Assembly (NCBI GenBank): GCA_020725555.1
Contig: DYEU01000026.1
Location: 115,693-179,692 of the forward strand
DNA length: 64,000 nt
Direction of reading: 5' to 3'
Source of the DNA: Desulfatibacillum sp.
GTDB lineage: Bacteria; Desulfobacterota; Desulfobacteria; Desulfobacterales; SpSt-501
The translations under genes and the position numbers were made by a program. Below the pieces are notes generated by a model, which worked only from the letters and a program-made list of their open reading frames with translations, was not told where the DNA came from and searched no databases. Shown here in pieces: positions 14,214-29,884 of the stretch; the first letter of the stretch is position 1, and each line of letters begins with the position of its first letter.

Positions 14214-14894
14214 ATGCAAATCAACGACCAGCGCGGCCGTGCCCGGGAGCGCAGGCGCCAGCAGATCCTGGCGGCCGCCAAGCGCGTGTGCGCCCTCCAG
14301 GGGATCCACCGCTGCTCCACCCGGGACATCGCGGCCGCGGCCGAGCTCAGCCCGAGCGCCCTCTACCTTTATTTCCGCAACAAGGAAGAAATCATCGCCG
14401 CCCTCTCCATGCGCATCCTCAAGCACCTCGTGGTGCGGCTCACCTACTGCGAGGAAAAGGGGGATGTCCGCCTGGACGACCACCTCGCCGGATTGCGGCA
14501 GGCGCTGCTGGATGTCCGCCGGGTCGATCCGCTGCTCTTCGACTGGGTGCTGGGCCTGCAAAGCCACCGGTTTCTCGCCGCGATCGAGAAACCCCTGCTC
14601 CGGGAGGTCCAGGCGCTGCTCGACCAGGCGCTCGACATCCTCGCCCGCATTCTTGCGCGGTGCCGCGGGGCGGCCGGGGACGAACCCGGCTTCTCCCGCG
14701 CCCTGGCGACCGTGCTCTGGTCCTGTTTCACGGGGGTGGTGCTTCACGGCGAGAGGGGGTTCGTGTTGCGCAACCGGGAAAACGCCCTGGAGGAAACCCT
14801 CGAGGTCGCCTTCGAGGTGACCGCCCGGGGTTTTGAGAGGCTTGCGCCGGCGCGAGGAAACGGGACGTCCCCCGCGCTGCCGGCTGGGGTGTGA
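14214..14894 (+). CDS. TetR/AcrR family transcriptional regulator
   Basis: 226 aa. N-terminal HTH ...ILAAAKRVCALQGIHRCSTRDIAAAAELSPSALYLYFRNKEEI. Confidence 0.9.
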   Translation: MQINDQRGRARERRRQQILAAAKRVCALQGIHRCSTRDIAAAAELSPSALYLYFRNKEEIIAALSMRILKHLVVRLTYCEEKGDVRLDDHLAGLRQALLDVRRVDPLLFDWVLGLQSHRFLAAIEKPLLREVQALLDQALDILARILARCRGAAGDEPGFSRALATVLWSCFTGVVLHGERGFVLRNRENALEETLEVAFEVTARGFERLAPARGNGTSPALPAGV

Positions 14895-14930: not shown

Positions 14931-16961
<2,031 letters not shown>

Positions 16962-17044
16962 AAGCGGCCGGGCCGCCCGCCGCGGAGGGCGTTTGGACGG
17001 CCTCCCGCGGGGCGCGGCGGCGCCGCGGAAGAGGAGGGGGGACC

Positions 17045-18850
17045 ATGAGCGGCACCACCTGGGTCTACATCATGCTCGGCATCTACACGATCTATGCCTT
17101 CTACTGGGGCATCAAGGGCTACGTCACGGAGAAGACGTCGGCCGGTTACGCGATCGGGGGGCGGTCGATCCCGTTCATCGCCTTTCTCATGGCGGCGACG
17201 GCGGCCTCCTTTTCCGGCTGGACCTTCATCGGCCACCCGGGGCTCATCTGGCGCGACGGCCTCGCCTACGCCTTCGCCTCCTTCTACGTGCTCACCATCC
17301 CGATCACGGGGACCTTCTTCGCCAAGCGAAACTGGCTGCTCGGCAAGCGCTACGGGTTCATCACGCCGGGCGACATGTTCGCCTATTACTACAACTCCGA
17401 AACCGCCCGCTGGCTGACCGTGGCGACCTCGTTTCTCTACTCCATGTTCTACACCGCGGTTCAGCTCATGGCCTCGGCCGCCCTCTTTCACTGGGTCGCC
17501 GGGGTCCCCGTCACCTTCGGGGCGATCTTCATGGCCTTCATCTGCTGGTTCTACGTCTGCTCGGGGGGCATGAAGGCGAGCGCCTGGGTGGGCGTCCTGC
17601 AGTTCGTCCTGCTTGTCGGCGGCATCATCCTCATGGGCTACTACACGATCACCGCACCGGAGATCGGCGGCTGGAAAGGCATGTCCGAGGCGCTGCAGAA
17701 GCTCGACCGCAAGCTGCTCGAGGTCCCGGCCGTCCTGTTCTGGACCGAAAACGCCGCGGCCTACGCCAAGTCCCACGGGACGGTGATGTGGACCTCGCTC
17801 ATGTGCCTCACCTACATGTTCGCCCTGATGGGGATCCAGTCCTCGCCCGCCTTCACCATGTGGAACTTCGGCCAGAAGAGCCCCGCCCCGCTCGCCTGGC
17901 AGCAGACCTTCATGTCCACCTTCGTGGTGGGCTTCGCGCTCTTCTACTTCACCGCCTTCCAGGGGATGGGGGCGAAGATCCTCGAGCTCAAGGGGGTGCT
18001 CCAGTTCACCAAGGACAGCGACGTCGTGCCGATTCTCATGAAGACCTACCTGCCGCCGTTCGTCCTGGGACTCGTCTTCCTGGGGGCCATCGCGGCCATG
18101 CACTCGACCGCCGCCCCCTACATCAACACCGGCGGCTCGATCCTCCTGCGCGACGTCTACTGGCGCTACCTCCGCAGGCAGCAGGCCGGCCACAACGAGC
18201 AGATCTGGGTGAACCGGCTGCTCGCCACCGTGGTCACCGCCGCCGCCCTCGTGGTCGGGCTGCACTCGACCGCCGCCCTGGTCATCCTCGGGGCGCTCGC
18301 GACCGCCTTCGGGTTCGTGCAGTACATCTACCTTCTCGGCGTGAACTGGGGCTTCCGCTTCCCGGCGGTCGGCGCGAACCTGGGGGTGCTCGCGGGCATG
18401 GTCGCGGTCTTTCTCACCTATTACGTCTGGCCCAACCCGCTCTCCATGCACTGCGCCTTCTGGGGGCTCTTCACGGGCCTCGTGGTCGCCTACCTCTGCC
18501 GCCGCGTGGGGGTGAAGGACGACCCCGAGACCCTGCGGCGCCAGCAGGAGCTGCGCGCCTTCCTCAACGACATCGACGCCCCCTCGCCCTCGGGCCGCGC
18601 CTGGCGCCAGGCCATGAAGTGGATCGTCCCGATCTGGTATTTCTTCGCCATCGGCCCGGCCTGCATTCTCGGCAATTCCTCCTTCTCGTTCGCCGGCTTC
18701 CCGGCGCTGTGGTCCTGGCAGATCGCCTGGTGGATCCTCGGCATCGTCATGATGTGGGCGCTCACCTTCAAGGCCGAGATGGCGACCTGCACGGACCGCA
18801 TGCTCGAGCGCGCGGAGCGCGAGACGATGATCGTCGTGAAAGAGGCCTGA
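17045..18850 (+). CDS. Sodium:solute symporter (SSS/SLC5) family permease, predicted short-chain carboxylate uptake from context
   Basis: Track ORF 16814..18850 trimmed to ATG 17045 behind GAGGAGGGGGG. 601 aa, at least 13 hydrophobic helices, typical SSS N-terminus (YAIGGRSIPFIAFLMAATAASFSGWTFIG). Confidence 0.9.
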   Translation: MSGTTWVYIMLGIYTIYAFYWGIKGYVTEKTSAGYAIGGRSIPFIAFLMAATAASFSGWTFIGHPGLIWRDGLAYAFASFYVLTIPITGTFFAKRNWLLGKRYGFITPGDMFAYYYNSETARWLTVATSFLYSMFYTAVQLMASAALFHWVAGVPVTFGAIFMAFICWFYVCSGGMKASAWVGVLQFVLLVGGIILMGYYTITAPEIGGWKGMSEALQKLDRKLLEVPAVLFWTENAAAYAKSHGTVMWTSLMCLTYMFALMGIQSSPAFTMWNFGQKSPAPLAWQQTFMSTFVVGFALFYFTAFQGMGAKILELKGVLQFTKDSDVVPILMKTYLPPFVLGLVFLGAIAAMHSTAAPYINTGGSILLRDVYWRYLRRQQAGHNEQIWVNRLLATVVTAAALVVGLHSTAALVILGALATAFGFVQYIYLLGVNWGFRFPAVGANLGVLAGMVAVFLTYYVWPNPLSMHCAFWGLFTGLVVAYLCRRVGVKDDPETLRRQQELRAFLNDIDAPSPSGRAWRQAMKWIVPIWYFFAIGPACILGNSSFSFAGFPALWSWQIAWWILGIVMMWALTFKAEMATCTDRMLERAERETMIVVKEA

Positions 18851-18959: not shown

Positions 18960-19035
18960 CCCGGCCGGGCGATGCGCCGCCGGCGGGGGGCACCCCCCGC
19001 CGGCCCCACCCTTGCGTCGCGAGGAAAAGCGCCCG

Positions 19036-20943
19036 ATGACGAACCGCTACGAAGAAGACTACCGCCTGTCGATCCGGGACCCGGAGCGGTTCTGGGGGAC
19101 ACAGGCCGAGGCGATCGACTGGCACCGGCCCTGTGACCGCGTGCTCGACGACTCCCGCAAGCCCTTCACCCGCTGGTTTCCGGGAGGGGAGCTCAACACC
19201 TGCCACAACGCCCTCGACCGGCACGTCGCCCGGGGCCGCGGCCGGCAGGCGGCCCTGATCTACGACAGCCCGGTCACGGGAACGGTGCGCGCCTATACCT
19301 ACGAGGCGCTGCGCGACGAGACCGCCCGCTTCGCGGGCGTGCTCGCCGCCCTGGGTGTGCGCCGCGGCGACCGCGTCGTGATCTACATGCCGATGATCCC
19401 CGAGGCGGTGATCGCCATGCTGGGCTGCGCCCGGCTGGGTGCGGTGCACTCGGTCGTCTTCGGGGGCTTCGCCCCCCCGGAGCTCGCCGTGCGCATCGAC
19501 GATGCCGCGCCGAAGGTCGTCGTCTCCGCCTCCTGCGGCATCGAAGTGAACCGCCTGATCCCCTACAAGCCGCTCCTGGAGGCCGCGCTCGCCCGGGCCT
19601 CGGCCAAGCCCGAGCGCTGCCTCATCGTGCAGCGGCCGATGCACCGGGCCGAGCTCACCCCCGGCCGCGACCTCGACTGGGAGGAGGCCATGGCCCGGGC
19701 CGCGCCGCACGAGTGCGTCCCGGTGCGCGCGACCGACCCCCTCTACATCCTCTACACCTCCGGGACGACGGGGCTGCCCAAGGGGGTGGTGCGGGACAAC
19801 GGCGGCCATGCCGTGGCCCTGCACTACACGATGGGGGCGATCTACGGCATGCAGCCGGGCGAGGTGTACTGGGCGGCCTCGGACGTGGGCTGGGTGGTGG
19901 GCCATTCCTACATCGTCTACGGCCCTCTGCTGAAAGGATGCACGAGCATCCTCTACGAGGGAAAGCCCGTGGGGACGCCCGATGCCGGCGCCTTCTGGCG
20001 GGTGATCGCCCAGCACGGGGTGCGCTGCCTCTTCACCGCGCCGACCGCCTTCCGCGCCATCAAGCGGGAAGACCCCCGCGGGGAGATGCTGCGGCGCTAC
20101 GACCTCTCCGGCTTCCGGGCGCTCTTTCTCGCCGGCGAGCGGCTGGACCCCGACACGCTTCGCTGGGCCCAACGGCTGCTCGGGGTGCCCGTGATCGACC
20201 ACTGGTGGCAGACCGAGACCGGATGGGCAATCGCCGGCAACTGCCTCGGCCTGCATGCCTTTCCCGTCAAGGAGGGCTCGGCGACCAAGCCCGCCCCGGG
20301 CTGGGACCTGCAGGTCCTCGGCCCCGATGGGCAGCCCCTGCCCCCCGGCCAGATCGGCGCCCTCGTCGCCCGGCTGCCCCTTCCCCCGGGCACCCTGACG
20401 ACGCTGTGGAACAACGACGCCGGCTTCCTCAAGTCCTACATGGAGGAATTCCCCGGCTGCTACAAGACGGCCGATGCGGGCTTCATCGACGAGGAAGGCT
20501 ATGTCTACGTGATGTCGCGCACCGACGACATCATCAACGTCGCCGGCCATCGGCTTTCCACCGGCGCCATGGAGGAGGTGCTCGCCGACCACCCGGACGT
20601 GGCCGAGTGCGCCGTGCTCGGGGTCGAGGACCCCCTCAAGGGGCAGGTCCCGATCGGGTTTCTCGTGCTCAAGGCCGGCGTCGACCGCCCCCCCGAGCAG
20701 ATCGTCCGCGAGGTGATCCAGATGGTCCGCGACCGGATCGGCGCGGTCGCCTCCTTCAAGACGGCGACCGTGGTGAAGCGGCTGCCCAAGACCCGCTCCG
20801 GGAAGATCCTCCGCGGCACGATCCAGAAGATCGCCGACAACCGCCCCTGGAAAATGCCGGCCACGATCGACGACCCGGCCATCCTGGAGGAGATCCGCGA
20901 GGCGCTGCAGTCCCTCGGGTACGCCAAACCGCAGGGCGCGTAA
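19036..20943 (+). CDS. prpE: Propionate-CoA ligase / acyl-CoA synthetase (PrpE-like)
   Basis: Start at ATG 19036 (MTNRYEEDYRLSIRDPERFW). YTSGTTGLPKGV, HWWQTETGW, DDIINVAGHRLST, LPKTRSGKILRG. Confidence 0.88.
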   Translation: MTNRYEEDYRLSIRDPERFWGTQAEAIDWHRPCDRVLDDSRKPFTRWFPGGELNTCHNALDRHVARGRGRQAALIYDSPVTGTVRAYTYEALRDETARFAGVLAALGVRRGDRVVIYMPMIPEAVIAMLGCARLGAVHSVVFGGFAPPELAVRIDDAAPKVVVSASCGIEVNRLIPYKPLLEAALARASAKPERCLIVQRPMHRAELTPGRDLDWEEAMARAAPHECVPVRATDPLYILYTSGTTGLPKGVVRDNGGHAVALHYTMGAIYGMQPGEVYWAASDVGWVVGHSYIVYGPLLKGCTSILYEGKPVGTPDAGAFWRVIAQHGVRCLFTAPTAFRAIKREDPRGEMLRRYDLSGFRALFLAGERLDPDTLRWAQRLLGVPVIDHWWQTETGWAIAGNCLGLHAFPVKEGSATKPAPGWDLQVLGPDGQPLPPGQIGALVARLPLPPGTLTTLWNNDAGFLKSYMEEFPGCYKTADAGFIDEEGYVYVMSRTDDIINVAGHRLSTGAMEEVLADHPDVAECAVLGVEDPLKGQVPIGFLVLKAGVDRPPEQIVREVIQMVRDRIGAVASFKTATVVKRLPKTRSGKILRGTIQKIADNRPWKMPATIDDPAILEEIREALQSLGYAKPQGA

Positions 20944-20989: not shown

Positions 20990-21361
20990 ATGGGCAAGAC
21001 CGTGTTGATCGTGGACGACGAGCCCAGCCTCATCGTCGCGCTGCAGTTTCTCCTTGAGGAAAACGGGTTCGAAACCCGGGTCGCCTTCAGCGGCGAGGAG
21101 GCGCTCGAGTCGATCGCCGCGCACCGGCCCGATCTCGTCCTCCTCGACATCATGCTGCCCGCGGTCGACGGCTTCGAGGTCTGCCGCCGCATCCGGGAAA
21201 ACCCGGAGACCCGCGACATCCGCATCGTCCTTCTCTCGGCGCTCGGGGGCCAGGCGCACATCACCCGCGGGATGGACCTCGGCGCCGACGCCTACATCAC
21301 CAAGCCCTTCTCCAACGCCGAGCTGCTCTCCCGCATCCGGGAACTGCTGGGATGCGCCTGA
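20990..21361 (+). CDS. Stand-alone response-regulator receiver (CheY-like)
   Basis: 123 aa. VLIVDDEPS, LVLLDIMLP (phospho-Asp), LLSALG, ITKPF are all present. No output domain. Confidence 0.92.
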   Translation: MGKTVLIVDDEPSLIVALQFLLEENGFETRVAFSGEEALESIAAHRPDLVLLDIMLPAVDGFEVCRRIRENPETRDIRIVLLSALGGQAHITRGMDLGADAYITKPFSNAELLSRIRELLGCA

Positions 21362-23487
21362 ACCTCTCCCCCGGCTCCTATGGGTTCGCCGTGCTGCTCG
21401 CCGCGGCCGCGGCGCTGGGGGGGGCCGCCCTCTTCGGGCTTCTGGCCTGGCGGGATCTCGACCCTGCCGAGCGGGCCGCAGCCGGCGAGCTCCTGCGGCG
21501 CAGCGGGCCCACCCTCGCCCTGGGGGGGTGCCTCGTGCTTCTCGTCGGCGGGATGCTCGTCGAATGGATCGACCGCCAGTACCGCAGGCCGCTCGGCCGC
21601 CTGCGGGAGCAGGTCTCGATCCTGCGCGGCCTTTCCCCCTCGCGGCGCATCCGCCCCGAGGGGGCCGCCGAGGTGCAGGGGCTGGCGGCGGAGATCAACG
21701 CCTTGTCCGATCTTCTCGAGGCGCGCCGCGAGAGCGTCGAAGAGCGCATCCGGGCCGCCCGCGGCGAGCTCGAGGAGGAAAAGCGCCTGCTCTCCGGCAT
21801 CCTGGCCGAGCTGCCCGAAGGGGTCCTCGTCTGCGACCCGGAGGGGCGGATCATCCTCTACAACGAGCGGGCCCGGCAATGGCTCGGGGACCCCCCGATC
21901 GGGCTGGGGCGTTCGCTGCTTTCGGTTTTCGACCCGGGGCTCTTCCGGCAGGCCCTGGAGGATGTCGCCTCGCGGCTCAAGCGGGCGGGCCGCGAGCCGG
22001 CCGTTTCCTTTGCCGCCCGGCTGCCGGGCGGCCGGCTGCTCCACACCACGATGGCGCCGCTGCTTGCGCCGACGCGCGAAATCCGCGGCGTGATCCTGAT
22101 CTTCGCCGACGCGACCGAAGCCGACGAGGCCGTGTGCCGGGGCGAAGAGGCCCTGGAGACCCACTTCTTCACCCTGCGGCGCTCCGTCGGCATCCTGCGC
22201 ACGACCGTCGAGATCCTGCGCGACGCCAAGGGGCTTCCCCCCGGGAAGCGGCGCGAATTCGAAGAGATCCTGGACCGCGAATCCCGCACCGCGGCCCAGG
22301 CGACCGAGGAGGCGGCGGCCGCCTGGGCCGCCCACCGCCCGCCCACCGGTGCGGTGTCGGCCATGCCGGCCGGCGATTTCCTGGAGCTGCTCGCCCGGAG
22401 GGTGCGGGGGCTCGGGGAGATCGACGTCCGCCGCGAGGTTCCGCACCCGACGCTCTGGGTCCGGGCCGACGGGCAGGCGATGGCCGCGGCGATCGTCTTT
22501 CTCCTGTCGCGGCTCGCCCCCCCGCCCGGCGGCCTGCGGCGGATTCATTGCCGCTGCACGCGCCGCGAGCACCGCGTGCTCGTCGACCTCGTCGGCACCG
22601 GCGCCCCCCCGGAGGCCGCCGCACAGGCCGCCTGGGAGCGGGAGCCGCTCGCGGTCGGCGGGGTCACCCTGAACACGACGCTGGCCGAGGTGTTCCGGCG
22701 GCACCGCGCCTCGTGGTGGGTGCTGCCGCCGGGGGAGTCGGCGGAGGGGACGCTCCGCGTGATGCTCGAGGCGGCCGGGCCTCCGGCCATCCCCCCGCCC
22801 CGCCGCACGACGCTTCTTGCCGGCTCCCGCCCGGTCTATTACGATTTCGACCTCTTCGCCGGACGCCGGGCCGGGGCGGCTCTGCTCGATCAGCCGCTCG
22901 GCCTGCTGGTCTGCACCGCCTTCGATACCGAAACCACGGGGTTGGACCCGGAGGGCGGCGACGAGATCATCGCCCTCGGCGCGGTGCGGATCGTGAACGG
23001 GAGGCTTCTCGAGTCGGAGGTCTTCGAGCGGCTCGTGCGGCCGGGGATCGACCCCCGGCCCGAGTCGGTGCGGATTCACGGCCTGGGGCCCGACATCCTG
23101 CGCGATCAGCCGGAGGCCGGGGCCGTGCTCGCCGAGTTTGCGCGCTTCGCCGAGGGGACGGTCCTGGTCGCCCACCACGCCGCCTTCGACATGCGCCTGC
23201 TCACGCTCCAGGGCGGCCGCGCCGGCGTGCGCTTCGACCAGCCGGTGCTCGACACCCTGTTGCTCTCGCTCGCCGTGCACCCGGGCCATGCGGACCACCG
23301 GCTCGAGGCGATCGCCGAGCGGCTGGGGGTGACGATCCGGGGGCGCCACACGGCCCTGGGCGACGCGCGGGCGGCGGCGGAGATTTTCCTGCGCCTCACC
23401 CCGCTCCTGGAGAAGGCGGGGATCGCGACCCTCGCCCAGGCGCTCGAGGCCTCGCGCGGCGCCCTCGAACGGCGCCTCAGGGGGTGA
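21352..23487 (+). CDS. Membrane sensor: 2TM-HAMP-PAS-degenerate histidine-kinase-like module fused to a DEDDh (DnaQ-like) 3'-5' exonuclease
   Basis: 711 aa. Start overlaps the receiver stop by 10 nt. TM segments FAVLLAAAAALGGAALFGLLAW and LALGGCLVLLVGGMLVEWI. HAMP-like YRRPLGRLREQV...EVQGLAAEINALSDLL. PAS-like LLSGILAELPEGVLVCDPEGRIILYNERARQWLG. Kinase-like region lacks a canonical H-box (ETHFFTLRRSVGILRTTVEIL), N-box Asn (FLLSRL) and G-boxes (DLVGTGA, GGVTLNTTL). Exo I FDTETTGL, Exo II LVAHHAAFDMRLL, Exo III HTALGDARAAAEIF are intact. Confidence 0.85.
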   Translation: MRLNLSPGSYGFAVLLAAAAALGGAALFGLLAWRDLDPAERAAAGELLRRSGPTLALGGCLVLLVGGMLVEWIDRQYRRPLGRLREQVSILRGLSPSRRIRPEGAAEVQGLAAEINALSDLLEARRESVEERIRAARGELEEEKRLLSGILAELPEGVLVCDPEGRIILYNERARQWLGDPPIGLGRSLLSVFDPGLFRQALEDVASRLKRAGREPAVSFAARLPGGRLLHTTMAPLLAPTREIRGVILIFADATEADEAVCRGEEALETHFFTLRRSVGILRTTVEILRDAKGLPPGKRREFEEILDRESRTAAQATEEAAAAWAAHRPPTGAVSAMPAGDFLELLARRVRGLGEIDVRREVPHPTLWVRADGQAMAAAIVFLLSRLAPPPGGLRRIHCRCTRREHRVLVDLVGTGAPPEAAAQAAWEREPLAVGGVTLNTTLAEVFRRHRASWWVLPPGESAEGTLRVMLEAAGPPAIPPPRRTTLLAGSRPVYYDFDLFAGRRAGAALLDQPLGLLVCTAFDTETTGLDPEGGDEIIALGAVRIVNGRLLESEVFERLVRPGIDPRPESVRIHGLGPDILRDQPEAGAVLAEFARFAEGTVLVAHHAAFDMRLLTLQGGRAGVRFDQPVLDTLLLSLAVHPGHADHRLEAIAERLGVTIRGRHTALGDARAAAEIFLRLTPLLEKAGIATLAQALEASRGALERRLRG

Positions 23488-26215
23488 GCGCCGGCGGCGG
23501 GGGGGGAGGGGGCCTGAGCGGCAGGCCGAAATGAAACGCGGCGCCGCCCTCGGGGCCCGATGCGGCGCGGATCCAGCCCCCGTGGTGCTCGAGGATCCGG
23601 CGCACGATGGCCAGCCCGAGGCCCGTGCCGGCCAGACGGCCCCGCGGGCCGCGGCGGCGCACCTGGTAGAAGGCCTCGAAGACGGCCTCGCGGTCCTCGG
23701 CCGGGATGCCGGGGCCGTTGTCGCTCACGACCCCGGTGATCTCGTCCCCGCGGCGCTCGAGGCGGACGTCGATCCGGCCGCCGGTGTCGGGGCAGAACTT
23801 CAGGGCGTTCGACAGCAGGTTGAGGGCGACCTGCAGCAGGCGGTCGCGATCCCCGAAGACCGGCGGGAGCGTTTCCGGTTCCTCGAGCGCGAGGCGGATT
23901 CCCCGCTCCTCGAGCATCGGCCGCATCGCGGCGGCCGCCTCGCGCCAGACCTCCCGCAGGTCCAGGGGGAGCGGCTGCCCGAGGGACTTGCCGCTTTCGA
24001 GCCGCTGGAAATCGAGCACCTGGTTCACCAGCCGCCCCAGGCGCTCGCTTTCCTTCACCACGACCGCGGTCAGGCTCCGGCGGCGCTCCTCGGGCATCCG
24101 CGGGTGCGCCTGCAGCGATTCGGCGATGGAGCGCACCGCGGCGAGCGGGGTTCGCAGCTCATGGGTGACGGTGGCAATGAACTCGTCCTTCAAGCGGTCG
24201 AGTTCTTCGAGGCGCCGGTTGGCGGCGCGCAGCTCCTCGGCGAGCTTTTCGAGCTCGCGGCTGTAGCTGATGGCGGCCCGGTTTTCCTCGAGGATCTCGA
24301 GGAGCTCCTCGGCGCGAAGCGGTTTCTCCTGCACGACCGAGGCGACCATCACGCGGGCCGAGGCCGAGCCGACGGCACCCGCGAGCAGCCCCTCGGCGAA
24401 GGTGACGAGCGCCGGGTCGGCCGGCCGCCCCGGCCTCGGCCGCAACCCGTGATGGCGCGCGAACTCGCCCAGGGCCTCCTCGGTCCGCTCCCGGCCGAGG
24501 AAACGCTCGAGCAGAAGCCGGAGATCCCGAACGCGGGCCGTTCCCCGCCACAGCGGCACCGCCTCCGGCCGGGCGGGGAAGGCGAAGGCGTCGACGAAAA
24601 GCTCCGCCTGCGCCCGCTCCGCGGCCGGCGGCGTGCCGAGGAGCGAGAGCCCGGTGAAGAGGCCGAGGTTGACGAGCAGGCTCCAGAAGAAGGCATGGGC
24701 GATCGGGTTCAGGCCCTCGAGGCCCATCAGGTGGCCGGGCCGGAGCCAGCCCCAGCCTGCCGGGCCGTGGGCGACGATCGCCTCCCCGAGGAGGCCGGCG
24801 TCCACCAGCGAGGGCACGATCAGGGTGTAGAACCAGACGGCGAAGCCGCCGATCAGCCCGGCCAGGGCGCCGCGGCGGGTGGCGTGCTTCCAGAAGAGGC
24901 CGCCGAGGAGGGCCGGGGCGAACTGCGCGACCGCCACGAAGGAGATTTGGCCGAGCGCGACCAGGGAGTGCATCTGCCCGATCGCGCGGTAGTAGGCGTA
25001 GCCCGAGGCGAGAACGAGGACGATGCAGGCGCGACGCAGGACGAGGATCCCGCGGCGGGGGTCCCGCTCCAGGGAAAGCGGCCGGCCGGGCAGCCGCAGC
25101 CAGAGCGGCAGCAGGAGGTCGTTGGCGATCATGGTCGCGAGAGCCACCGACTCGACGATCACCATCGCGGTCGCCGCCGACATGCCGCCCACGAAGGCGA
25201 CGAGCGCCAGCCCCTCCCGCTGCAGGGCGAGCGGCAGCGTGAGGCCGAAGGTGTCCGCGTCCACCCCGCCGGGAAACTGGAGGCTGCCGGCCACGGCGAT
25301 CGGCAGGACGAAGAGGTTGATCGCCCAGAGGTAGAGCGGAAAGAGCCACAGTGCCTTTCCCAGGTGCTCTTCGCTCACGTTTTCGACCACGGCCACGTGG
25401 AACTGGCGCGGGAGGCAGAGAAAGGCGAGAAACGAGAGCAGCATCTCGAGCGACCACCCCAGGGGCTCGGCGCGCGGGTGGGCGGCGGCGAGAATCTCCT
25501 GCAGCCGCGGCTCGGCCGCGGCGCGGCCGAAGAGGGCGGCGGGGCCGCCGAAGGCGGCCAGAGTGAAGAGCCCGACGGCGACAAAGGCGGCGAGCTTCAC
25601 GATCGACTCGAAGGCCACGGCGGCCACGATCCCCTCGTGGCGCTCGGTGGCCTCGAGCTTGCGCGTGCCGAACAGCATGGCGAAGAGGGCGAGGAGCCAG
25701 GCCACGTGGAAGGAGGTGTCCTCCAGTACGGGCTTGGCTTCCAGGTGCCGCGGCATGATGATCAGGGGCGCGTGGCTCAGGATGTCGAAGCCGTCGGCGA
25801 CGGCCTTGAGCTGGAGGGCGATGTAGGGGATCAGCCCCAGCAGGGCGAAGCAGGTCACCGCGGCGGCGAGGGCCGCGCTCTTGCCGTAGCGGGAGGAGAG
25901 AAAATCGGCGATCGAGGTGGTGCGGTGGGCTTTCCCGATGCGGATCATCTTGCGCATCACCGTAAAGCCCAGCGCGCAGGCGAGCGTCGGCCCCAGGTAG
26001 GTGGGCAGGAAGGCCGGCCCCTCCGCGGCGGCGCGGCCGACGCTGCCGTAGAAGGTCCAGGCCGTGCAGTACACGGCGAGCGAGAGCGCGTAGACGTAAG
26101 GGTTGGCGATCGCGCTGCGGCCGCGCTCCGCCCGCCGGTCGGCCCAAAAGGCGACGGCAAAAAGCAGGCCCACGTACCCGAGGGCCACGGCGAGGATGAG
26201 CGGCGCGCCCAGCAC
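23477..26215 (-). CDS. SLC5/SSS-domain-fused sensor histidine kinase (CbrA/CrbS-like, no receiver domain)
   Basis: 912 aa, GTG start. N-terminal ~500 aa polytopic SSS-like domain, linker (LGEFARHHGL...LLAGAVGSASARVMVASVV), H-box ATVTHELRTPLAAV, N-box LLSNALKF, G1 DNGPGI, G2 GTGLGLAIV. The 3' end overlaps the convergent sensor-exonuclease gene by 11 nt. Confidence 0.9.
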   Translation of the reverse strand: MLGAPLILAVALGYVGLLFAVAFWADRRAERGRSAIANPYVYALSLAVYCTAWTFYGSVGRAAAEGPAFLPTYLGPTLACALGFTVMRKMIRIGKAHRTTSIADFLSSRYGKSAALAAAVTCFALLGLIPYIALQLKAVADGFDILSHAPLIIMPRHLEAKPVLEDTSFHVAWLLALFAMLFGTRKLEATERHEGIVAAVAFESIVKLAAFVAVGLFTLAAFGGPAALFGRAAAEPRLQEILAAAHPRAEPLGWSLEMLLSFLAFLCLPRQFHVAVVENVSEEHLGKALWLFPLYLWAINLFVLPIAVAGSLQFPGGVDADTFGLTLPLALQREGLALVAFVGGMSAATAMVIVESVALATMIANDLLLPLWLRLPGRPLSLERDPRRGILVLRRACIVLVLASGYAYYRAIGQMHSLVALGQISFVAVAQFAPALLGGLFWKHATRRGALAGLIGGFAVWFYTLIVPSLVDAGLLGEAIVAHGPAGWGWLRPGHLMGLEGLNPIAHAFFWSLLVNLGLFTGLSLLGTPPAAERAQAELFVDAFAFPARPEAVPLWRGTARVRDLRLLLERFLGRERTEEALGEFARHHGLRPRPGRPADPALVTFAEGLLAGAVGSASARVMVASVVQEKPLRAEELLEILEENRAAISYSRELEKLAEELRAANRRLEELDRLKDEFIATVTHELRTPLAAVRSIAESLQAHPRMPEERRRSLTAVVVKESERLGRLVNQVLDFQRLESGKSLGQPLPLDLREVWREAAAAMRPMLEERGIRLALEEPETLPPVFGDRDRLLQVALNLLSNALKFCPDTGGRIDVRLERRGDEITGVVSDNGPGIPAEDREAVFEAFYQVRRRGPRGRLAGTGLGLAIVRRILEHHGGWIRAASGPEGGAAFHFGLPLRPPPPPPPALTP

Positions 26216-26221: not shown

Positions 26222-26440
26222 TCAGGGGCCGCCCCCGCGGTCGGGGGGGCTCTCGCGGGAGACGAGGGCGATCAGCGCGGTCAGACCCGCCCAGGCGAGG
26301 TAGAGGTAGACGTAGAGGAGGGGGAGCTCCAGGATTCCGGCCGGTTGGGCGAACAGCGAAAGCATCGGGGGGTTGAGGAGCAGGCACCCCAGCAGGAAGA
26401 CGACCCATCTGCGGTCGTTGCGGCCGGCATTCGGCTCCAT
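26222..26440 (-). CDS. 72-aa two-helix membrane protein (DUF3311-like / CbrX-like leader ORF) upstream of the SLC5-kinase
   Basis: MEPNAGRNDRRWVVFLLGCLLLNPPMLSLFAQPAGILELPLLYVYLYLAWAGLTALIALV... Stop is 6 nt before the kinase GTG. This pattern resembles small ORFs that precede SSS transporters (recollection). Confidence 0.55.
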   Translation of the reverse strand: MEPNAGRNDRRWVVFLLGCLLLNPPMLSLFAQPAGILELPLLYVYLYLAWAGLTALIALVSRESPPDRGGGP

Positions 26441-26499
26441 CGCCTGGACCCCGTTCGGCGGCGCGGCGCCCCCCCCGTCGCGGGCGGGGCCGTGATGCC

Positions 26500-26529
26500 G
26501 CTATAGAGAAATGGTGCCGCCCTTGTCAA
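26500..26529 (-). promoter_or_regulatory. Sigma70-type promoter candidate for the small ORF / SLC5-kinase operon
   Basis: On the minus strand: TTGACA (comp 26524-26529), 18 nt, TATAGC (comp 26500-26505), about 55 nt upstream of ATG 26440. Confidence 0.3.
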
Positions 26530-26553
26530 ACGGAAGCTCGGAGGGGAGGCAGG

Positions 26554-28884
26554 ATGAAGGAGTCCCGGATCGAGGTTCTCGCCCGGATCAAGCCTTTCGG
26601 TGAGCTCCCCGGCCGGGAGCTCGGCGAGATCGCCGCTGCGCTCGCGCCGATGCGCTTTGCGGCCGGCACGCTCCTTGCGGTCCAGGGGCGCAGCACGCTC
26701 GACTACGTCTACATCGTCCGCTCGGGCCGCCTGGAGCTTTTTTTCGAAGAGCCCGGCAAGAAAACCCTCCGTGCGGAGCTCGCCCCCGGGGACATCTTCG
26801 GGGCGGTCTCCATCCTGTTCAACGGCGGGCTCGCCATCCGCAGCCTGCGCGCGCTCGAGGAGGCCGAGCTCTGGCTGATCCCCCGCCAGCGGTTTCTCGA
26901 CCTCTGCCGGCGCCACGCCCGGCTCACCGCCCATTTCGAGGGCGTGTTCAGCGAGCGGATGCAGAACGAGGAGTACGCGCGCAGCCTCGCCGGCTCTCTG
27001 CTCACGCAGTTTCTCGCGCGCATCCCCCCGTTTTCCTTTCTGCCGGAGGAGGAGCTCCGCCGTCTCGCCCCGCACCTCCGGCGGCTTTTCATCCCCCGGG
27101 GGACCCGGCTCTTCGTCCAGGGCGAATCGCGCGTCGACGGGCTCTACATCCTGCAGAGCGGCGCGGCCGAGCGCTTCTACGAGGAGCACGGCGAGCGCCG
27201 GCTGGTCAGCGTCATGGGGGAGGGGGAGATCTTCGGGGGGATCTCCCTGCTGGTGAACGACATGCTCGCCGTGCGCTCGCTGCGGACGATCGAGGATTGC
27301 CTTTTCTGCAAGCTCGATTGCGACGCCTTCTTCGACCTCTGCCGCCGCTACCCCCTCTTTAGCGAGTTCTTCACCGACGCCTTCGGCAAGCGCATGCTCG
27401 ACCGCACCTACGCGGCGATCATCGCCAAGGGCGAGGCGGTCGACACCGGGCCGGTCGCCTTCTTCGACCAGCCCGTCGCCGGGGTGTGCTCCCGGGAGCT
27501 CCTCGCCTGCGAGGCCGGCCTGTCGATCCGCGAGGCGGCCGAGCGCATGAGCGCCCGCCGCTGCAGCAGCATCTTCGTCCGTGACGAGGGGGGGCGGCCG
27601 TCCGGGATCGTCACCGACAGCGACATCCGCAGCCGGGCCGTGGCCGCCGGCCGCGACCCCGAGGAGCCGGTGGCGGCGATCATGAGCACGCCCCTCCGGA
27701 CGGTCCCCGAGAAGGCCTCCGTCTTCGAGGCCCTCATGGCGATGATGCAGCACGGGATCAAGCACCTCGCCGTGACCGGCGAGGAGGGGGGGGTCGTCGG
27801 CGTGGTCACCCAGCAGGACATTCTCGGCCGCCAGGGGATCTCCCCCTGGCGGCTGCTCCGGGACGTGGCCGGCGAGTCGCGGCCGGAGGTCTTCAAGACC
27901 CTCGGCCTCCGGCTGCCGCGGATCCTCCAGGGGTTCATCCGCTCGGGCACGACGGCCGACCAGATCAACCGCTTCATCACCGCCTTCACGGACGCCGTGC
28001 TCGAGCGGCTCTGCCGCGCGGCGCTGGCCGACCTGGGGCCCCCGCCCGGGCCCTTCGCCTTTTTGCTCCTCGGCAGCGAGGGCCGCCGGGAACAGACCCT
28101 CTGCACGGACCAGGACAACGCGATCCTCTACGAGGACCCGCCGCCGGGGCGGGAGGAGGCGGTGCAGGCGTGGTATCTGCGCTTCGGCGAACGCGTGTGC
28201 GCGGATCTCGACCGGGCGGGGTTCCGGCGCTGCCGGGCCGAGGTCATGGCGAGCAACCCGAAGCTGTGCCGGCCGTTTTCGGTGTGGCTGCGCCGGTTTC
28301 AGGACTGGATCCACGCCGCCGAGGCCGAGGACCTGCTCTACGCCAGCATCTTCTTCGATTTCCGGCTCGGCTTCGGCGACCCGGGGCTCGTCGAGCGGCT
28401 GCGGGCCTCCCTCAGCCGGGAGATCGCCGGCTGGACGGGGTTTTTGCGCCACCTCGCGCTGAACGCGCTCCACACCCGGCCGCCGATCGGGATCTTCCGC
28501 AACTTCATTCTCGAGTCGAAGGGCGAGCACCGCCGCAAGCTCGACATCAAGCGCGCCATGCTGCCGATCGTGGACGCCGCCCGGATCTACGCCCTGAAGC
28601 ACGCCGTCGCCGAAACCAACACGCTCGCCCGGCTGCGGCAATGGCAGGCGTTGCCGGGAGCGGCGGCGCGGGAGATCCAGGAGATCGAGCAGGGCTACCG
28701 CTTTCTCATGCAGCTGCGGCTCGCCCACCAGGCCGAGCAGATGACGCACCCCGGCCAGGCGGCGGACAACCACATCGACCCGCGGACCCTCTCCGGGATG
28801 GAACAGCGCCTGCTGAAGGAGGTCTTCCTGCGGATCGCCGGTCTGCAGACCCGCCTGAGCCTCGAATGGACGGGGGAGCCCTGA
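26554..28884 (+). CDS. 2x cNMP-binding + CBS pair + DUF294 nucleotidyltransferase + DUF294_C protein
   Basis: 776 aa. Two cyclic-nucleotide-binding-like beta-barrels (GDIFGAVSILFNGGLAIRSLRA; GEIFGGISLLVNDMLAVRSLRT). CBS pair (SSIFVRDEGGRPSGIVTDSDI; KHLAVTGEEGGVVGVVTQQDIL). NTase core FAFLLLGSEGRREQTLCTDQDNAILYED. C-terminal helical domain with IKRAMLPIVDAARIYAL. Confidence 0.9.
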   Translation: MKESRIEVLARIKPFGELPGRELGEIAAALAPMRFAAGTLLAVQGRSTLDYVYIVRSGRLELFFEEPGKKTLRAELAPGDIFGAVSILFNGGLAIRSLRALEEAELWLIPRQRFLDLCRRHARLTAHFEGVFSERMQNEEYARSLAGSLLTQFLARIPPFSFLPEEELRRLAPHLRRLFIPRGTRLFVQGESRVDGLYILQSGAAERFYEEHGERRLVSVMGEGEIFGGISLLVNDMLAVRSLRTIEDCLFCKLDCDAFFDLCRRYPLFSEFFTDAFGKRMLDRTYAAIIAKGEAVDTGPVAFFDQPVAGVCSRELLACEAGLSIREAAERMSARRCSSIFVRDEGGRPSGIVTDSDIRSRAVAAGRDPEEPVAAIMSTPLRTVPEKASVFEALMAMMQHGIKHLAVTGEEGGVVGVVTQQDILGRQGISPWRLLRDVAGESRPEVFKTLGLRLPRILQGFIRSGTTADQINRFITAFTDAVLERLCRAALADLGPPPGPFAFLLLGSEGRREQTLCTDQDNAILYEDPPPGREEAVQAWYLRFGERVCADLDRAGFRRCRAEVMASNPKLCRPFSVWLRRFQDWIHAAEAEDLLYASIFFDFRLGFGDPGLVERLRASLSREIAGWTGFLRHLALNALHTRPPIGIFRNFILESKGEHRRKLDIKRAMLPIVDAARIYALKHAVAETNTLARLRQWQALPGAAAREIQEIEQGYRFLMQLRLAHQAEQMTHPGQAADNHIDPRTLSGMEQRLLKEVFLRIAGLQTRLSLEWTGEP

Positions 28885-29266: not shown

Positions 29267-29884
29267 TCAGGGGAGGTCTTCGGGGGGGGCGGGGGCGATC
29301 GCGCGGCGGCAGATCTCCCAGAGGGGGCGGTAGCCCGCGGAGAGGTTGAAGCGGTAGTCGTCGAGGGCCCAGAGGGTCACCAGGCCCTGGATCATGCTGA
29401 AGAGCAGGAGCGCCACCGCCTGCGGGTCGGTCCCTTCGCGGATCTCGCCGCGGGCTGCGCCGTCGGCGACCAGGCGGCCCAGGCGCTCGAGGTAGACCGC
29501 GAGTTTGTCGTGGACCTCGCGGTTGAGGCGGCGGTCCCCGAAGCTCAGGATCTCGGCGATCACGAGAAAGGCCATGCCGCGGCGCTGCTCGATCTCGGAG
29601 AGGTGATCCTCCTGGATCCGGCCGATCCGCTCGAGGGTGCCCCCCGGCCCGGAGGAGACACGCTCGACCTCGGCGACCAGGGTGTCGAGGATATCGTCGA
29701 CGAGGAAGAGCAGCACCTCGCGTTTGCTGCGGAAGTGGCGGTAGATGGCGGCCTCGGTCAGCCCCACCTCGCGTGCCATGGCCCGCACCGTGAGGTGCTC
29801 GCTTCCCTTGCGGATGATCAGCTTGCGGGCGGCGTCGAGAATCTCCCGCTTGCGGACGGCGCTGCTGCGGCGGTGCTGGCTCAT
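29267..29884 (-). CDS. TetR/AcrR family transcriptional regulator
   Basis: Only the last 205 codons of the artefactual 998-aa track ORF 29267..32263. ATG comp(29882-29884). HTH LTVRAMAREVGLTEAAIYRHFRSKREVL. Confidence 0.9.
   Translation of the reverse strand: MSQHRRSSAVRKREILDAARKLIIRKGSEHLTVRAMAREVGLTEAAIYRHFRSKREVLLFLVDDILDTLVAEVERVSSGPGGTLERIGRIQEDHLSEIEQRRGMAFLVIAEILSFGDRRLNREVHDKLAVYLERLGRLVADGAARGEIREGTDPQAVALLLFSMIQGLVTLWALDDYRFNLSAGYRPLWEICRRAIAPAPPEDLP

What the first reader, a model, noticed from the sequence alone, without database searches (positions are those of the whole stretch)
26554..28884. DUF294 nucleotidyltransferase with a duplicated cNMP-binding module, divergent from the kinase operon
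Seen: 776 aa with two consecutive cyclic-nucleotide-binding-like domains (PBC-like FGAVSIL...AIRSLRA and FGGISLL...AVRSLRT), a CBS pair, an NTase core (LLGSEGRREQTLCTDQDNAILYED) and the helical DUF294_C domain.

Established: the usual family architecture has one cNMP domain. The catalytic fold is Pol-beta-like, as in GlnD/GlnE uridylyl-/adenylyl-transferases. The target and reaction of DUF294 are unknown to me.

Inference: it integrates several signals (two cNMP-type ligands plus an adenylate via CBS) to control nucleotidylylation of an unknown protein or RNA in the acetate/propionate pathway. The neighbouring DEDDh exonuclease is a plausible antagonist.
Basis: partly seen in the sequence, partly recalled or inferred. 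Interest (0 to 1): 0.6.

Follow-up and report, generated by a model that had tools for sequence, protein, structure and literature searches.

The report
Sensor-gated GlnE-like nucleotidyltransferase, two-CNB form
This gene encodes a signalling enzyme whose catalytic half looks like the enzymes that switch other proteins on or off by attaching AMP or UMP; it sits in an acetate/propionate uptake cluster and travels through genomes with a nuclease that may remove the mark, but its target is still unknown.

Summary
Window 26554-28884(+) encodes a 776-aa protein with two cNMP-binding-fold (CNB) domains, a CBS pair, DUF294 and DUF294_C. The two CNB modules are 41% identical, so this is a true internal duplication.

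The form is not a one-off: 110 of 120 listed homologue clusters are 768-802 aa with the same domain set.

A confident model of the C-terminal 347 residues (pLDDT 91) matches both GlnE domains and DrrA over about 300 residues (Z 24-26). The next fold scores Z about 10. This favours protein nucleotidylylation.

The partner gene (21352-23487) is a membrane-anchored, histidine-kinase-like protein without the phospho-accepting His, fused to an intact DEDDh exonuclease.

In 201 related genomes, 96 of 97 with this exonuclease also carry the transferase. Other family members carry a fused PHP phosphoesterase.

Published Pseudomonas and Shewanella genetics tie the pair to monocarboxylate symporters. 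No biochemistry was found.

Best reading: a ligand-gated writer of a nucleotide mark, with the nuclease as eraser. The ligands are unproven, because both phosphate-binding cassettes are non-canonical. It is a new variant of a known, uncharacterised family.

The parts
26554..28884 (+). Target gene: 776-aa CNB-CNB-CBS-CBS-DUF294-DUF294_C protein (P0001)
   Evidence: It is the only DUF294 copy in the 3.59-Mb genome.
26554..26988 (+). CNB-A, residues 1-145: the extra cNMP-binding-fold module with its trailing helix
   Evidence: The single CNB of 21 of 22 one-CNB relatives is closer to CNB-B, so this is the added copy.
26989..27438 (+). CNB-B, residues 146-295: the family's ancestral-type CNB module, better conserved (GAAERY, FGGIS, VR[ST]L[RK]T)
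27469..27831 (+). CBS pair, residues about 306-426
   Evidence: Pfam CBS with 2 stretches. PDB CBS-pair proteins align to 306-425.
27841..28881 (+). Catalytic module, residues 430-776: lead-in helices, Pol-beta NTase core (GS...DxD...D602) and helical DUF294_C domain
   Evidence: Model pLDDT 91.3, pTM 0.89. GlnE N-domain Z 26.0, GlnE AT-C Z 25.1, DrrA Z 24.0. Foldseek E 1e-7 to 4e-6.
26442..26553 (.). 112-nt divergent intergenic region between the small ORF/kinase operon and the target gene
   Evidence: Read directly. No sigma-70-like site was found.
26222..26441 (-). 73-aa hydrophobic small ORF directly upstream of the kinase gene
   Evidence: My reading. No Pfam family. Its status as a gene was not tested.
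23477..26215 (-). 912-aa membrane histidine kinase: HisKA and HATPase_c, a weak SSF/SLC5-like match, no receiver domain
   Evidence: SSF scores 21.5 bits, under the 22.8 cut-off. Homologues of 49-61% identity occur in 15 of 80 loci.
21352..23487 (+). 711-aa partner protein (P0121): 2 TM, HAMP-like helix, PAS, His-less DHp/CA-like region, DEDDh exonuclease
   Evidence: RNase_T at 523-679, E 3e-32. D525, E527, D613, H666 and D671 are invariant in 37 of 37. The N-terminal ~480 aa aligns to sensor kinases and the C-terminus to Pol III epsilon. There is no conserved H-box His.
20990..21361 (+). 123-aa stand-alone receiver (CheY-like) whose gene overlaps the exonuclease gene start by 10 nt
   Evidence: A homologue (at least 100 bits) lies in 25 of 80 loci, directly upstream of the exonuclease gene in the loci read and directly after DUF294 in L028 and L063.
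19012..20943 (+). Acyl-CoA ligase; best NCBIfam match is propionate-CoA ligase, below its cut-off
   Evidence: 754.6 bits against a cut-off of 955.
16814..18850 (+). Sodium:solute symporter family transporter; the true start is probably near 17045
   Evidence: Pfam SSF E 1.5e-33. Relatives align from residue 78-83 onward. Found in 34 of 80 loci.
14931..16961 (+). Acetate-CoA ligase
   Evidence: NF001208 at 775 bits (cut-off 657) and TIGR02188 at 757 bits (cut-off 725).
14214..14894 (+). TetR-family regulator at the head of the cluster
   Evidence: It is conserved at the same place in L082-L084.
29267..29884 (-). TetR-family regulator convergent with the target gene
   Evidence: Conserved only in the closest relatives L002 and L037.

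Best explanation
The gene encodes a cytoplasmic signalling enzyme of the COG2905/DUF294 family. Two CNB-fold domains and a CBS pair sense small molecules. The ligands are unknown; an adenine nucleotide at the CBS pair is likely, and cAMP/cGMP at the CNB domains is doubtful. These sensors gate a C-terminal module built like GlnE and DrrA. That module most likely transfers a nucleotide monophosphate (AMP or UMP) from an NTP onto a hydroxyl group of a target protein. The target probably belongs to the monocarboxylate (acetate/propionate/pyruvate) uptake and activation cluster. Candidates are the SSF symporter, the acyl-CoA ligases and the stand-alone receiver protein. The DEDDh exonuclease in the same cluster is proposed to remove the mark by releasing 5'-NMP, which is the same chemistry as 3'-5' exonucleolysis. 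In this lineage the exonuclease is carried on a membrane-anchored, His-less kinase-like scaffold. That scaffold could dock the receiver that the neighbouring kinase phosphorylates.

What is shown: the domain architecture, intact catalytic residues in both enzymes, the fold relationship, the gene linkage and the genome co-occurrence. What is inferred: a protein as acceptor, which nucleotide, which target, the eraser role, and receiver docking.
For: Architecture and catalytic motifs.

Fold: a model with pLDDT 91 matches GlnE N-domain (Z 26.0, 305 residues aligned), GlnE adenylylation domain (Z 25.1, 303 aligned) and DrrA bound to Rab8a (Z 24.0, 293 aligned). The next unrelated folds score about Z 10. 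All four Foldseek matches with E <= 0.001 are chains of GlnE (three, its adenylylation and N-terminal domains) or DrrA.

Linkage: the exonuclease lies within the locus in 42 of 80 relatives, and 21 of those are directly upstream on the same strand. With adequate flanks the count is 30 of 52.

Genome level, 201 genomes: both genes in 96, exonuclease only in 1, transferase only in 29, neither in 75 (cross-tabulated by hand). In 4 of 5 genomes with an unlinked transferase, a full-length exonuclease homologue is present elsewhere; in the 3 of them whose surroundings were fetched it sits in the TetR-ligase-SSF-receiver cluster.

The exonuclease is catalytically intact: the DEDDh residues are invariant in 37 of 37 and 41 of 41.

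Independent fusion evidence: 11 of the 12 longest proteins among the 150 best family representatives carry an N-terminal PHP phosphoesterase on the same chain as the NTase.

Published genetics (passages and sections read). [quoted passage not shown] A COG2905/RNase T protein is cofit with a DUF4212+SSF symporter in Shewanella and P. stutzeri (bioRxiv 10.1101/072470, section 42).
Against: No target has been identified and no biochemistry exists for any family member.

The best fold match, GlnE N-domain, is the de-adenylylating domain (recalled). The fold therefore does not fix the direction of the reaction.

On propionate, both the PP_0353 and the PP_0354 mutants grow worse, while actP-I is dispensable (bioRxiv 10.64898/2026.09.07.749794, section 3.5). 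That is not simple antagonism on the symporter.

29 of 125 transferase-bearing genomes have no exonuclease match at E <= 1e-30. A clade of 15 two-CNB paralogues includes 14 without an adjacent exonuclease and has no conserved context.

The fused PHP domains resemble TrpH/RNase AM-type enzymes such as 7ug9 '5'-3' exoribonuclease'. From recall, these act on nucleotides and short RNAs, not proteins.

Both phosphate-binding cassettes lack the canonical Glu.
Confidence: 0.5

Rival explanations
1. Messenger synthase and degrader. The NTase makes a free nucleotide-derived signal, such as a linear or cyclic oligonucleotide. The DEDDh, PHP or DHH-type partner degrades it, as GGDEF/EAL pairs do for c-di-GMP. 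The signal controls symporter or ligase activity.
For: The partner hydrolases are nuclease or nucleotide-phosphoesterase types. These are Pol III epsilon-like DEDDh, fused PHP related to PDB entries titled '5'-3' exoribonuclease' and 'metal-dependent phosphoesterase', and one CBS-DHH-DHHA1 neighbour in L015. From recall, all three types include enzymes that degrade very short RNAs. The CNB domains could receive such a signal.
Against: The whole 300-residue module, including the helical substrate-binding domain, matches protein AMPylases at Z 24-26. Among polymerising NTases only Hailong HalB appears, at Z 6.9 with 180 residues aligned. The DHH neighbour is 1 of 80 loci. No receptor or effector for such a signal is evident in the cluster.
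Confidence: 0.2
2. RNA 3'-end writer and trimmer. The NTase tails, and the exonuclease trims, a specific mRNA, sRNA or tRNA. This sets expression of the symporter and SCFA genes.
For: [quoted passage not shown] The P. putida authors speculated on mRNA degradation (PMC9927547, section 8). DEDDh enzymes such as RNase T match the exonuclease domain. From recall, Pol-beta NTase plus RNase T is the classical tRNA end-turnover pair.
Against: The only RNA-tailing enzyme among the fold matches is a TUTase at Foldseek rank 38 (E 0.48, TM 0.17); none is in the VIA-align top 50. The catalytic module has a GlnE-type helical domain rather than an RNA-binding body. No RNA-binding domain was found in either protein.
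Confidence: 0.15
3. Small-molecule nucleotidylylation, or a non-catalytic sensor. The module adenylylates a metabolite, as aminoglycoside NTases do, or acts only as a ligand-binding scaffold.
For: Aminoglycoside NTases are the next full-length fold class, at Z 7-8 and Foldseek E about 0.07-0.3. Mutant phenotypes are mild (PMC9927547; PMC5715377 discussion).
Against: The catalytic GS...DxD...D residues are invariant in 65 of 65, which argues for catalysis. The fold match to aminoglycoside NTases is far weaker than to GlnE and DrrA. A co-conserved nuclease is hard to explain.
Confidence: 0.08

Closest known systems
COG2905 / Pfam DUF294 + DUF294_C 'signal-transduction protein with cNMP-binding, CBS and nucleotidyltransferase domains' (P. 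putida PP_0354, P. fluorescens Pflu5625)
   Same: It has the same catalytic module and CBS pair, the same pairing with an RNase_T-type exonuclease gene, and the same link to acetate/propionate/pyruvate genes and an SLC5-type kinase system (PMC9927547; PMC5715377; 10.64898/2026.09.07.749794).
   Different: It has two CNB modules instead of one. The exonuclease partner is a 711-aa membrane, kinase-like fusion, whereas PP_0353 showed only an RNase_T family hit in its authors' Pfam search (PMC9927547). The kinase has no receiver, and the local response regulator has no DNA-binding domain. The link here therefore looks post-translational rather than transcriptional, as in the CrbR/ErdR regulon.
GlnE (glutamine synthetase adenylyltransferase), both NTase domains (PDB 1v4a, 3k7d)
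   Same: The fold matches over about 300 residues, including the helical substrate-binding domain (Z 26.0 and 25.1). The G-S...D-x-D motif is shared.
   Different: Sequence identity is only 13-14%. No NCBIfam GlnE or GlnD model hit at E <= 0.1. There is a single NTase module rather than a tandem pair. The sensor domains are CNB and CBS. There is no glutamine synthetase or PII context.
DrrA/SidM AMPylation domain of Legionella (PDB 6yx5, 3nku)
   Same: The fold matches at Z 24.0 over 293 residues to the AMPylase bound to its Rab substrate.
   Different: DrrA is a secreted effector with GEF and lipid-binding domains. From recall, its mark is removed by a PPM-fold enzyme (SidD), not a nuclease.
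GlnD (PII uridylyltransferase / uridylyl-removing enzyme)
   Same: The logic is the same: a sensor-regulated NTase writes a nucleotide mark and a phosphohydrolase removes it. The PHP-NTase fusions in this family mirror GlnD's NTase+HD layout (GlnD layout recalled).
   Different: GlnD was not compared directly here. Its eraser is an HD domain in cis and its sensors are ACT domains (recalled).
MntA-HepT (minimal NTase-HEPN) systems (PDB 7ae2, 5yep, 8xdj)
   Same: The C-terminal helical domain matches HEPN-type domains at Z 8-10. From recall, MntA adds one to three AMPs to a tyrosine of HepT. That is a precedent for short nucleotide chains on a protein that an exonuclease could trim.
   Different: Only the helical domain matches. 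There is no toxin-antitoxin context.

Membership tests
Pfam DUF294 / DUF294_C (COG2905-type signalling NTase) | PF03445 NTase domain above the gathering score | tested here: met
   149.2 bits against a cut-off of 21, residues 453-590.
Pfam DUF294 / DUF294_C (COG2905-type signalling NTase) | PF10335 helical substrate-binding domain after the NTase core | tested here: met
   138.5 bits against a cut-off of 22.5, residues 629-770.
Pfam DUF294 / DUF294_C (COG2905-type signalling NTase) | N-terminal CNB domain plus CBS pair | tested here: met
   CBS with 2 stretches and CNB with 2 stretches, one more than the usual form.
Pol-beta-fold nucleotidyltransferases | hG[GS] ... D-x-D plus a third carboxylate | tested here: met
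   G507, S508, D519, D521 and D602 are invariant in 31 of 31 and 65 of 65 relatives.
GlnE/DrrA-type protein AMPylases | Shared fold of the NTase core plus helical domain | tested here: met
   Z 26.0, 25.1 and 24.0 with 293-305 residues aligned.
GlnE/DrrA-type protein AMPylases | Sequence-level membership in the GlnE or GlnD orthologous groups | tested here: not met
   No GlnE or GlnD model is among the NCBIfam hits at E <= 0.1. PDB sequence search finds no NTase relative.
GlnE/DrrA-type protein AMPylases | Transfer of AMP or UMP to a tyrosine or other hydroxyl of a protein | not testable with these tools
   Needs enzyme assays and mass spectrometry.
Canonical cyclic-nucleotide-binding domains (CRP/PKA/PKG type) | PF00027 beta-barrel domain | tested here: met
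   Two domains, 64.9 and 59 bits. A tandem alignment to PKG CNB-A/B was obtained.
Canonical cyclic-nucleotide-binding domains (CRP/PKA/PKG type) | Phosphate-binding cassette G-E-x-A...R-[ST]-A (signature recalled) | tested here: not met
   The Glu is Ala in CNB-A and an invariant Gly in CNB-B. The conserved Arg aligns 2-3 positions after the PKG Arg. The alignment of the Arg is open to a gap shift.
DEDDh 3'-5' exonucleases (partner protein) | Exo I D-x-E, Exo II D, Exo III H-x4-D | tested here: met
   D525, E527, D613, H666 and D671 are invariant in 37 of 37 and 41 of 41. The fold matches Pol III epsilon with TM 0.84-0.87 on the target.
Sensor histidine kinases (N-terminal part of the partner protein) | Phospho-accepting His in the DHp H-box | tested here: not met
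   The fold aligns to WalK, VicK, YF1 and ThkA. The H-box position is A, G or S and no His column is conserved in helix 1.
CrbS/CrbR (MxtR/ErdR) two-component system | SLC5 domain, hybrid kinase with receiver, and DNA-binding regulator CrbR | tested here: not met
   The kinase has HisKA and HATPase but no receiver. Its SSF match is 21.5 bits, under the cut-off. The local regulator is a receiver only. The hybrid nature of CrbS is taken from the PMC5715377 abstract.

The most novel reading that the evidence does not exclude
A new reversible protein modification cycle. DUF294-type enzymes write a nucleotide mark, or a short oligonucleotide tail, on a signalling or transport protein. The stand-alone receiver is an attractive hub. 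Proofreading-type nucleases (DEDDh epsilon-like in trans, PHP in cis) erase the mark. In Desulfobacterales the eraser sits on a His-less histidine-kinase scaffold that docks the receiver. The receiver would then integrate phosphorylation by the SLC5-type kinase with nucleotidylylation, and so control monocarboxylate uptake and activation.
Probability: 0.22. Interest if true: 0.8.

Novelty: new variant of a known kind. Interest (0 to 1): 0.5.

Why it matters
The DUF294/COG2905 module is widespread: 2326 representative clusters at E <= 1e-30. In pseudomonads it is among the genes most strongly dependent on the MxtR/ErdR (CrbS/CrbR) acetate-switch system (10.64898/2026.09.07.749794). No paper in the searched library reports its reaction or target.

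This work gives three things. It assigns the catalytic module to the GlnE/DrrA AMPylase fold. It shows genome-level coupling to a catalytically intact nuclease. It finds PHP-NTase fusions. Together these turn 'unknown function' into a testable writer/eraser hypothesis.

If a proofreading-type exonuclease removes nucleotides from a protein, that would be a new role for the DEDDh fold. It would also be a new layer of control on short-chain fatty acid uptake in sulfate reducers and pseudomonads.

Tried and rejected
1. Complex prediction of full-length DUF294 (alignment A1) with the exonuclease domain (A4) gave no verdict: ipSAE 0.05 in both runs, and the controls were not run. It counts neither for nor against binding.

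3. PDB sequence search with the whole protein found only CNB and CBS relatives and nothing for the NTase half. Fold search was needed.

4. The literature search for 'DUF294' was mostly false hits to DUF2946 and similar names. The HEPN paper was the only 'DUF294' hit read that truly concerns DUF294_C.

5. The 'PA3233' search listed no title about the protein, and those papers were not opened.

6. The promoter and terminator scan of 26100-29400 found 0 promoter-like sites. It found 3 terminator-like sites against 1.4 expected, none at a gene end.

7. My first guess at the small ORF upstream of the kinase (26281-26442) was in the wrong frame. It was replaced by 26222-26441, which has no Pfam family.

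8. I tested whether a DHH-type phosphoesterase is a recurrent neighbour. Only L015 of 80 loci has one; the other hits are CBS-only. A calcineurin-like phosphoesterase lies near DUF294 in 5 loci of one orphan sub-clade. This is probably inherited synteny, so it was not used.

9. I considered a sigma-54-like reading of TGGTGC-N5-TTGT upstream of the start. It rests on my eye only and was not pursued.

10. No CD-NTase, cGAS or CCA-adding enzyme was listed among the fold matches; the only tailing or polymerising NTases were a TUTase at Foldseek rank 38 (E 0.48, TM 0.17) and Hailong HalB (Z 6.9). Absence from a list does not exclude a relationship.
Full report
**1. Observation.**
Window 26554-28884(+) is an open frame of 776 codons. 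It starts at an ATG that follows GGAGGGGAGG. Its codon-position GC of 0.70/0.46/0.94 matches the other real genes of this 71% GC window.

Pfam finds four families, all far above their cut-offs:
- cNMP_binding, 2 stretches
- CBS, 2 stretches
- DUF294, residues 453-590, E 8.9e-44
- DUF294_C, residues 629-770, E 1.9e-40

Each CNB domain also passes the cut-off alone, at 64.9 and 59 bits. The two CNB modules, including the helix that follows each barrel, are 41% identical over 136 ungapped residues, E 8e-33. The single CNB of 21 of 22 one-CNB relatives is closer to CNB-B, so CNB-A is the added copy. The NTase motif and a third Asp (G507, S508, D519, D521, D602) are invariant in 31 of 31 full-length relatives and 65 of 65 C-terminal modules.

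**2. How unusual is the architecture?**
It is not unusual in this lineage. Of the 120 best homologue clusters listed (399 at E <= 1e-10 among 8000 candidates scored), 110 are 768-802 aa with the same four Pfam families. Many are exactly 776 aa, and named ones are labelled Desulfobacterales MAGs.

In a sample of 201 genomes of the same class, 125 carry the catalytic module. Among the 150 matches listed, I counted by eye roughly 56 in open frames of 745-835 aa and roughly 48 in frames of 620-690 aa. These lengths fit the two-CNB and one-CNB forms. They are stop-to-stop lengths, so the counts are approximate.

Family-wide, the module has 5625, 4043 and 2326 representative clusters at E <= 1e-3, 1e-10 and 1e-30. 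I scanned 27 representatives, chosen by length and not at random. They show alternative sensor fronts:
- one CNB
- two CNB
- PAS
- sCache-PAS-(PAS)-CBS
- PHP-sCache-PAS-CBS
- CBS only

The two-CNB form is thus one of several conserved sensor variants.

**3. Context in the window.**
Gene order is as follows:
- TetR, 14214-14894(+)
- acetate-CoA ligase, above its NCBIfam cut-offs, 14931-16961(+)
- SSF symporter, up to 18850(+)
- PrpE-like ligase, 19012-20943(+)
- stand-alone receiver, 20990-21361(+)
- 711-aa PAS/RNase_T protein, 21352-23487(+)
- convergent 912-aa histidine kinase, 23477-26215(-)
- 73-aa hydrophobic ORF, 26222-26441(-)
- 112 nt of intergenic DNA
- the target gene, 26554-28884(+)
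- TetR, 29267-29884(-)

The genome (3.59 Mb, 35 contigs) has a single DUF294 gene.

**4. The catalytic module.**
An AlphaFold2 model of residues 430-776, built on 65 sequences, has pLDDT 91.3 and pTM 0.89. Foldseek against the PDB gives four matches at E <= 0.001. All are GlnE (3k7d, two chains; 1v4a) or DrrA bound to Rab8a (6yx5). Aminoglycoside NTases follow at E about 0.07 and TM about 0.3.

The Foldseek-independent search gives Z 26.0 (1v4a, 305 residues aligned, rmsd 3.0), Z 25.1 (3k7d, 303 aligned) and Z 24.0 (6yx5_B, 293 aligned). Next come partial DrrA entries and HEPN-type helical domains at Z 8-12. The helical half belongs to the KNTase_C/HEPN clan, as Anantharaman et al. state (PMC3710099, passages read).

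The whole module is therefore a structural homologue of enzymes that nucleotidylylate, or in the GlnE N-domain de-adenylylate (recalled), tyrosines of proteins. At sequence level it is not a GlnE or GlnD orthologue.

**5. The sensor half.**
The tandem CNB pair aligns to the CNB-A/B tandem of PKG and PKA regulatory subunits. In both cassettes, however, the Glu after F-G is Ala or Gly, and Gly229 is invariant. The conserved Arg (R96, R241) aligns 2-3 residues after the canonical Arg.

The genome has one weak class III cyclase match, at 28.7 bits. Binding of cAMP or cGMP is therefore unproven. The retained R-[ST] could still bind a phosphate.

**6. The partner nuclease.**
P0121 has two N-terminal hydrophobic helices, a HAMP-like helix, PAS (147-258), a helical hairpin plus alpha/beta domain (255-475) and RNase_T (523-679). 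Its model (pLDDT 79) aligns over 350-476 columns to sensor histidine kinases. The matches are a WalK model (E 9.5e-19), VicK 4i5s, YF1 4gcz and ThkA 3a0r. Its C-terminus aligns to Pol III epsilon, PolC and DinG exonuclease domains.

In 37 homologues the H-box position carries A, G or S, and no His column is conserved in the first DHp helix. The five DEDDh residues are invariant in 37 of 37 and 41 of 41. The protein is thus a His-less kinase-like sensor carrying an active-looking exonuclease.

The receiver gene overlaps the exonuclease gene start by 10 nt. The receiver has the canonical D9, D10, D53, S83 and K105.

**7. Co-conservation.**
Among 80 related loci from species-representative genomes (543 confirmed matches, best 80 kept):
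- 42 contain a homologue of the exonuclease domain (at least 100 bits)
- 3 more contain a weaker DEDDh hit
- 34 contain the SSF symporter
- 25 contain the receiver
- 15 contain the kinase

With at least 5 kb upstream and 3 kb downstream, the exonuclease count is 30 of 52.

Of the 42 exonuclease-containing loci:
- 21 have the exonuclease directly upstream on the same strand
- 10 have a 0.5-1.5 kb gap
- 7 have a gap of more than 1.5 kb (in the window clade the kinase gene lies in this gap)
- 3 are convergent
- 1 has it downstream

In the 0.5-1.5 kb gap group, a LemA-family ORF fills the gap in 5 of 9 scanned.

A tree of 65 proteins shows the label is clustered, with 12 changes against 21 expected by shuffling. 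One well-supported clade of 15 two-CNB proteins includes 14 without an adjacent exonuclease. Their neighbours are unrelated housekeeping genes.

In 4 of 5 such genomes a full-length exonuclease homologue exists elsewhere; the fifth, a 2.3-Mb MAG, has only a short DEDDh match. In the three fetched, it sits in an otherwise intact TetR-ligase-SSF-(ligase)-receiver-exonuclease cluster, with the kinase gene beside it in two of them.

Across 201 genomes (at least 90% complete), the module is found in 125 and the exonuclease protein in 97, both at E <= 1e-30. My hand cross-tabulation of the two listings gives both in 96, exonuclease only in 1 (a fragmentary hit), module only in 29, and neither in 75. 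Related genomes are not independent, and divergent short exonucleases would be missed at this threshold.

**8. Fusion evidence.**
Among the 150 best representatives, 12 are at least 1064 aa long. Of these, 11 carry an N-terminal PHP domain ahead of sCache-PAS-CBS-NTase. The PHP part of P0230 is closest to PDB entries titled 'putative metal-dependent phosphoesterase' (3e0f), 'amidohydrolase' (2yb1) and '5'-3' exoribonuclease' (7ug9).

So the NTase is repeatedly joined, in cis or in trans, to a nuclease-type phosphoesterase. The logic recalls GlnD, which combines an NTase with a removing hydrolase (recalled).

**9. Literature.**
- In P. fluorescens, Pflu5625 belongs to the CrbS/R regulon and its mutant has no phenotype (PMC5715377, discussion passage).
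- In P. putida, ErdR binds the PP_0354 promoter, and PP_0354-PP_0353 form an operon. Deletion of the exonuclease, but not of the transferase, impairs growth on pyruvate, as does deletion of actP-I (PMC9927547, abstract and sections 7-8).
- A 2026 preprint reports that both deletions reduce growth on propionate, where actP-I and yjcH are dispensable. It calls the proteins' roles unclear (10.64898/2026.09.07.749794, passages).
- The RB-TnSeq preprint notes cofitness of a 'COG2905 (RNAse T domain protein)' with a DUF4212+SSF symporter for lactate and D-alanine (10.1101/072470, section 42).

No paper found by the searches reports an enzymatic activity or a target. Supplements were not read.

**10. 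Mechanism.**
The best-supported reading is a ligand-gated, GlnE/DrrA-type nucleotidyltransferase that marks a protein of the monocarboxylate uptake and activation system. The nuclease acts as the remover.

The pyruvate phenotypes fit an inhibitory mark on, or upstream of, the ActP-type symporter: the eraser mutant is sick, the writer mutant is not, and the transporter mutant is sick. The propionate phenotypes do not fit simple antagonism and point to additional targets, such as the ligases.

In this lineage the local receiver lacks an output domain and the eraser is fused to a kinase-like docking scaffold. Both suggest that the receiver is the hub, or even the substrate. This is inference only.

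Rivals are a free nucleotide messenger with its degrader, and RNA 3'-end tailing with trimming. Both remain open because the partner hydrolases are nuclease-type enzymes.

**11. Verdict.**
The gene is a conserved sensor-domain variant of a known but biochemically uncharacterised family. The value lies in the system-level picture and in the testable writer/eraser hypothesis.

Noticed in passing
window 21352-23487 (+): The 'exonuclease' is a 711-aa fusion of 2 TM, HAMP-like helix, PAS, a His-less DHp/CA-like pseudo-kinase and a DEDDh exonuclease. Its gene start overlaps the end of a stand-alone receiver gene. I found no description of a kinase-like exonuclease in the papers read.
   Followed up: yes
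proteins P0177, P0195, P0199, P0200, P0204, P0226, P0229, P0230, P0252, P0257, P0264: These family members of 1064-1247 aa fuse an N-terminal PHP phosphoesterase, sCache, PAS and CBS to the same NTase module. The PHP part resembles PDB 3e0f, 2yb1 and 7ug9.
   Followed up: partly
loci L013, L018, L020, L022, L024, L033, L036, L039, L043, L046-L048, L080, L081: This is a paralogous clade of two-CNB DUF294 genes with no adjacent exonuclease and no conserved neighbours. Of the five such genomes searched (those of L081, L039, L036, L033, L043), four keep a full-length exonuclease homologue elsewhere, inside the ligase-symporter cluster in the three whose surroundings were fetched.
   Followed up: yes
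L028 12424-12783 (+); L063 12426-12785 (+): A stand-alone receiver 58% identical to the window's follows DUF294 directly in two loci that lack the exonuclease. This hints at a direct receiver-transferase link.
   Followed up: partly
L056 5299-5910, L058 8813-9427, L073 9312-9956, L076 9337-9957, L079 441-1055: A LemA-family ORF of about 205 aa lies between the exonuclease and DUF294 genes in one clade. It is a Pfam hit in 5 of 9 gap ORFs scanned. The four Desulfotignum-type gap ORFs have no family.
   Followed up: partly
L060, L061, L064, L066: These are short DUF294 forms of 484-492 aa that match only residues about 296-774 of the query. They have no CNB domain at all, yet sit next to the exonuclease and symporter.
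   Followed up: no
window 39060-41900 (-): This is a 946-aa DHH-DHHA1-CBS-PolyA_pol head-domain fusion. It is another phosphoesterase-CBS-Pol-beta NTase combination in the same window, 10 kb from the target.
   Followed up: no
window 26222-26441 (-): This is a 73-aa hydrophobic ORF directly upstream of the kinase gene, with no Pfam family. It recalls the small ORF cbrX upstream of cbrA, which is mentioned in the PMC6591292 abstract listed.
   Followed up: partly
window 16814-17045 (+): The listed SSF ORF overlaps the acetate-CoA ligase gene end by 148 nt. Relatives align only from residue 78-83 onward, so the real start is probably near 17045.
   Followed up: partly
L015 8454-9752 (+): A CBS-DHH-DHHA1 phosphoesterase gene lies directly upstream of an exonuclease-less two-CNB DUF294 gene. 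It occurs in only 1 of 80 loci.
   Followed up: yes
L081 12309-13733 (+): In Desulfosarcina alkanivorans a PAS-LuxR(GerE) regulator gene overlaps the end of the orphan two-CNB DUF294 gene.
   Followed up: no
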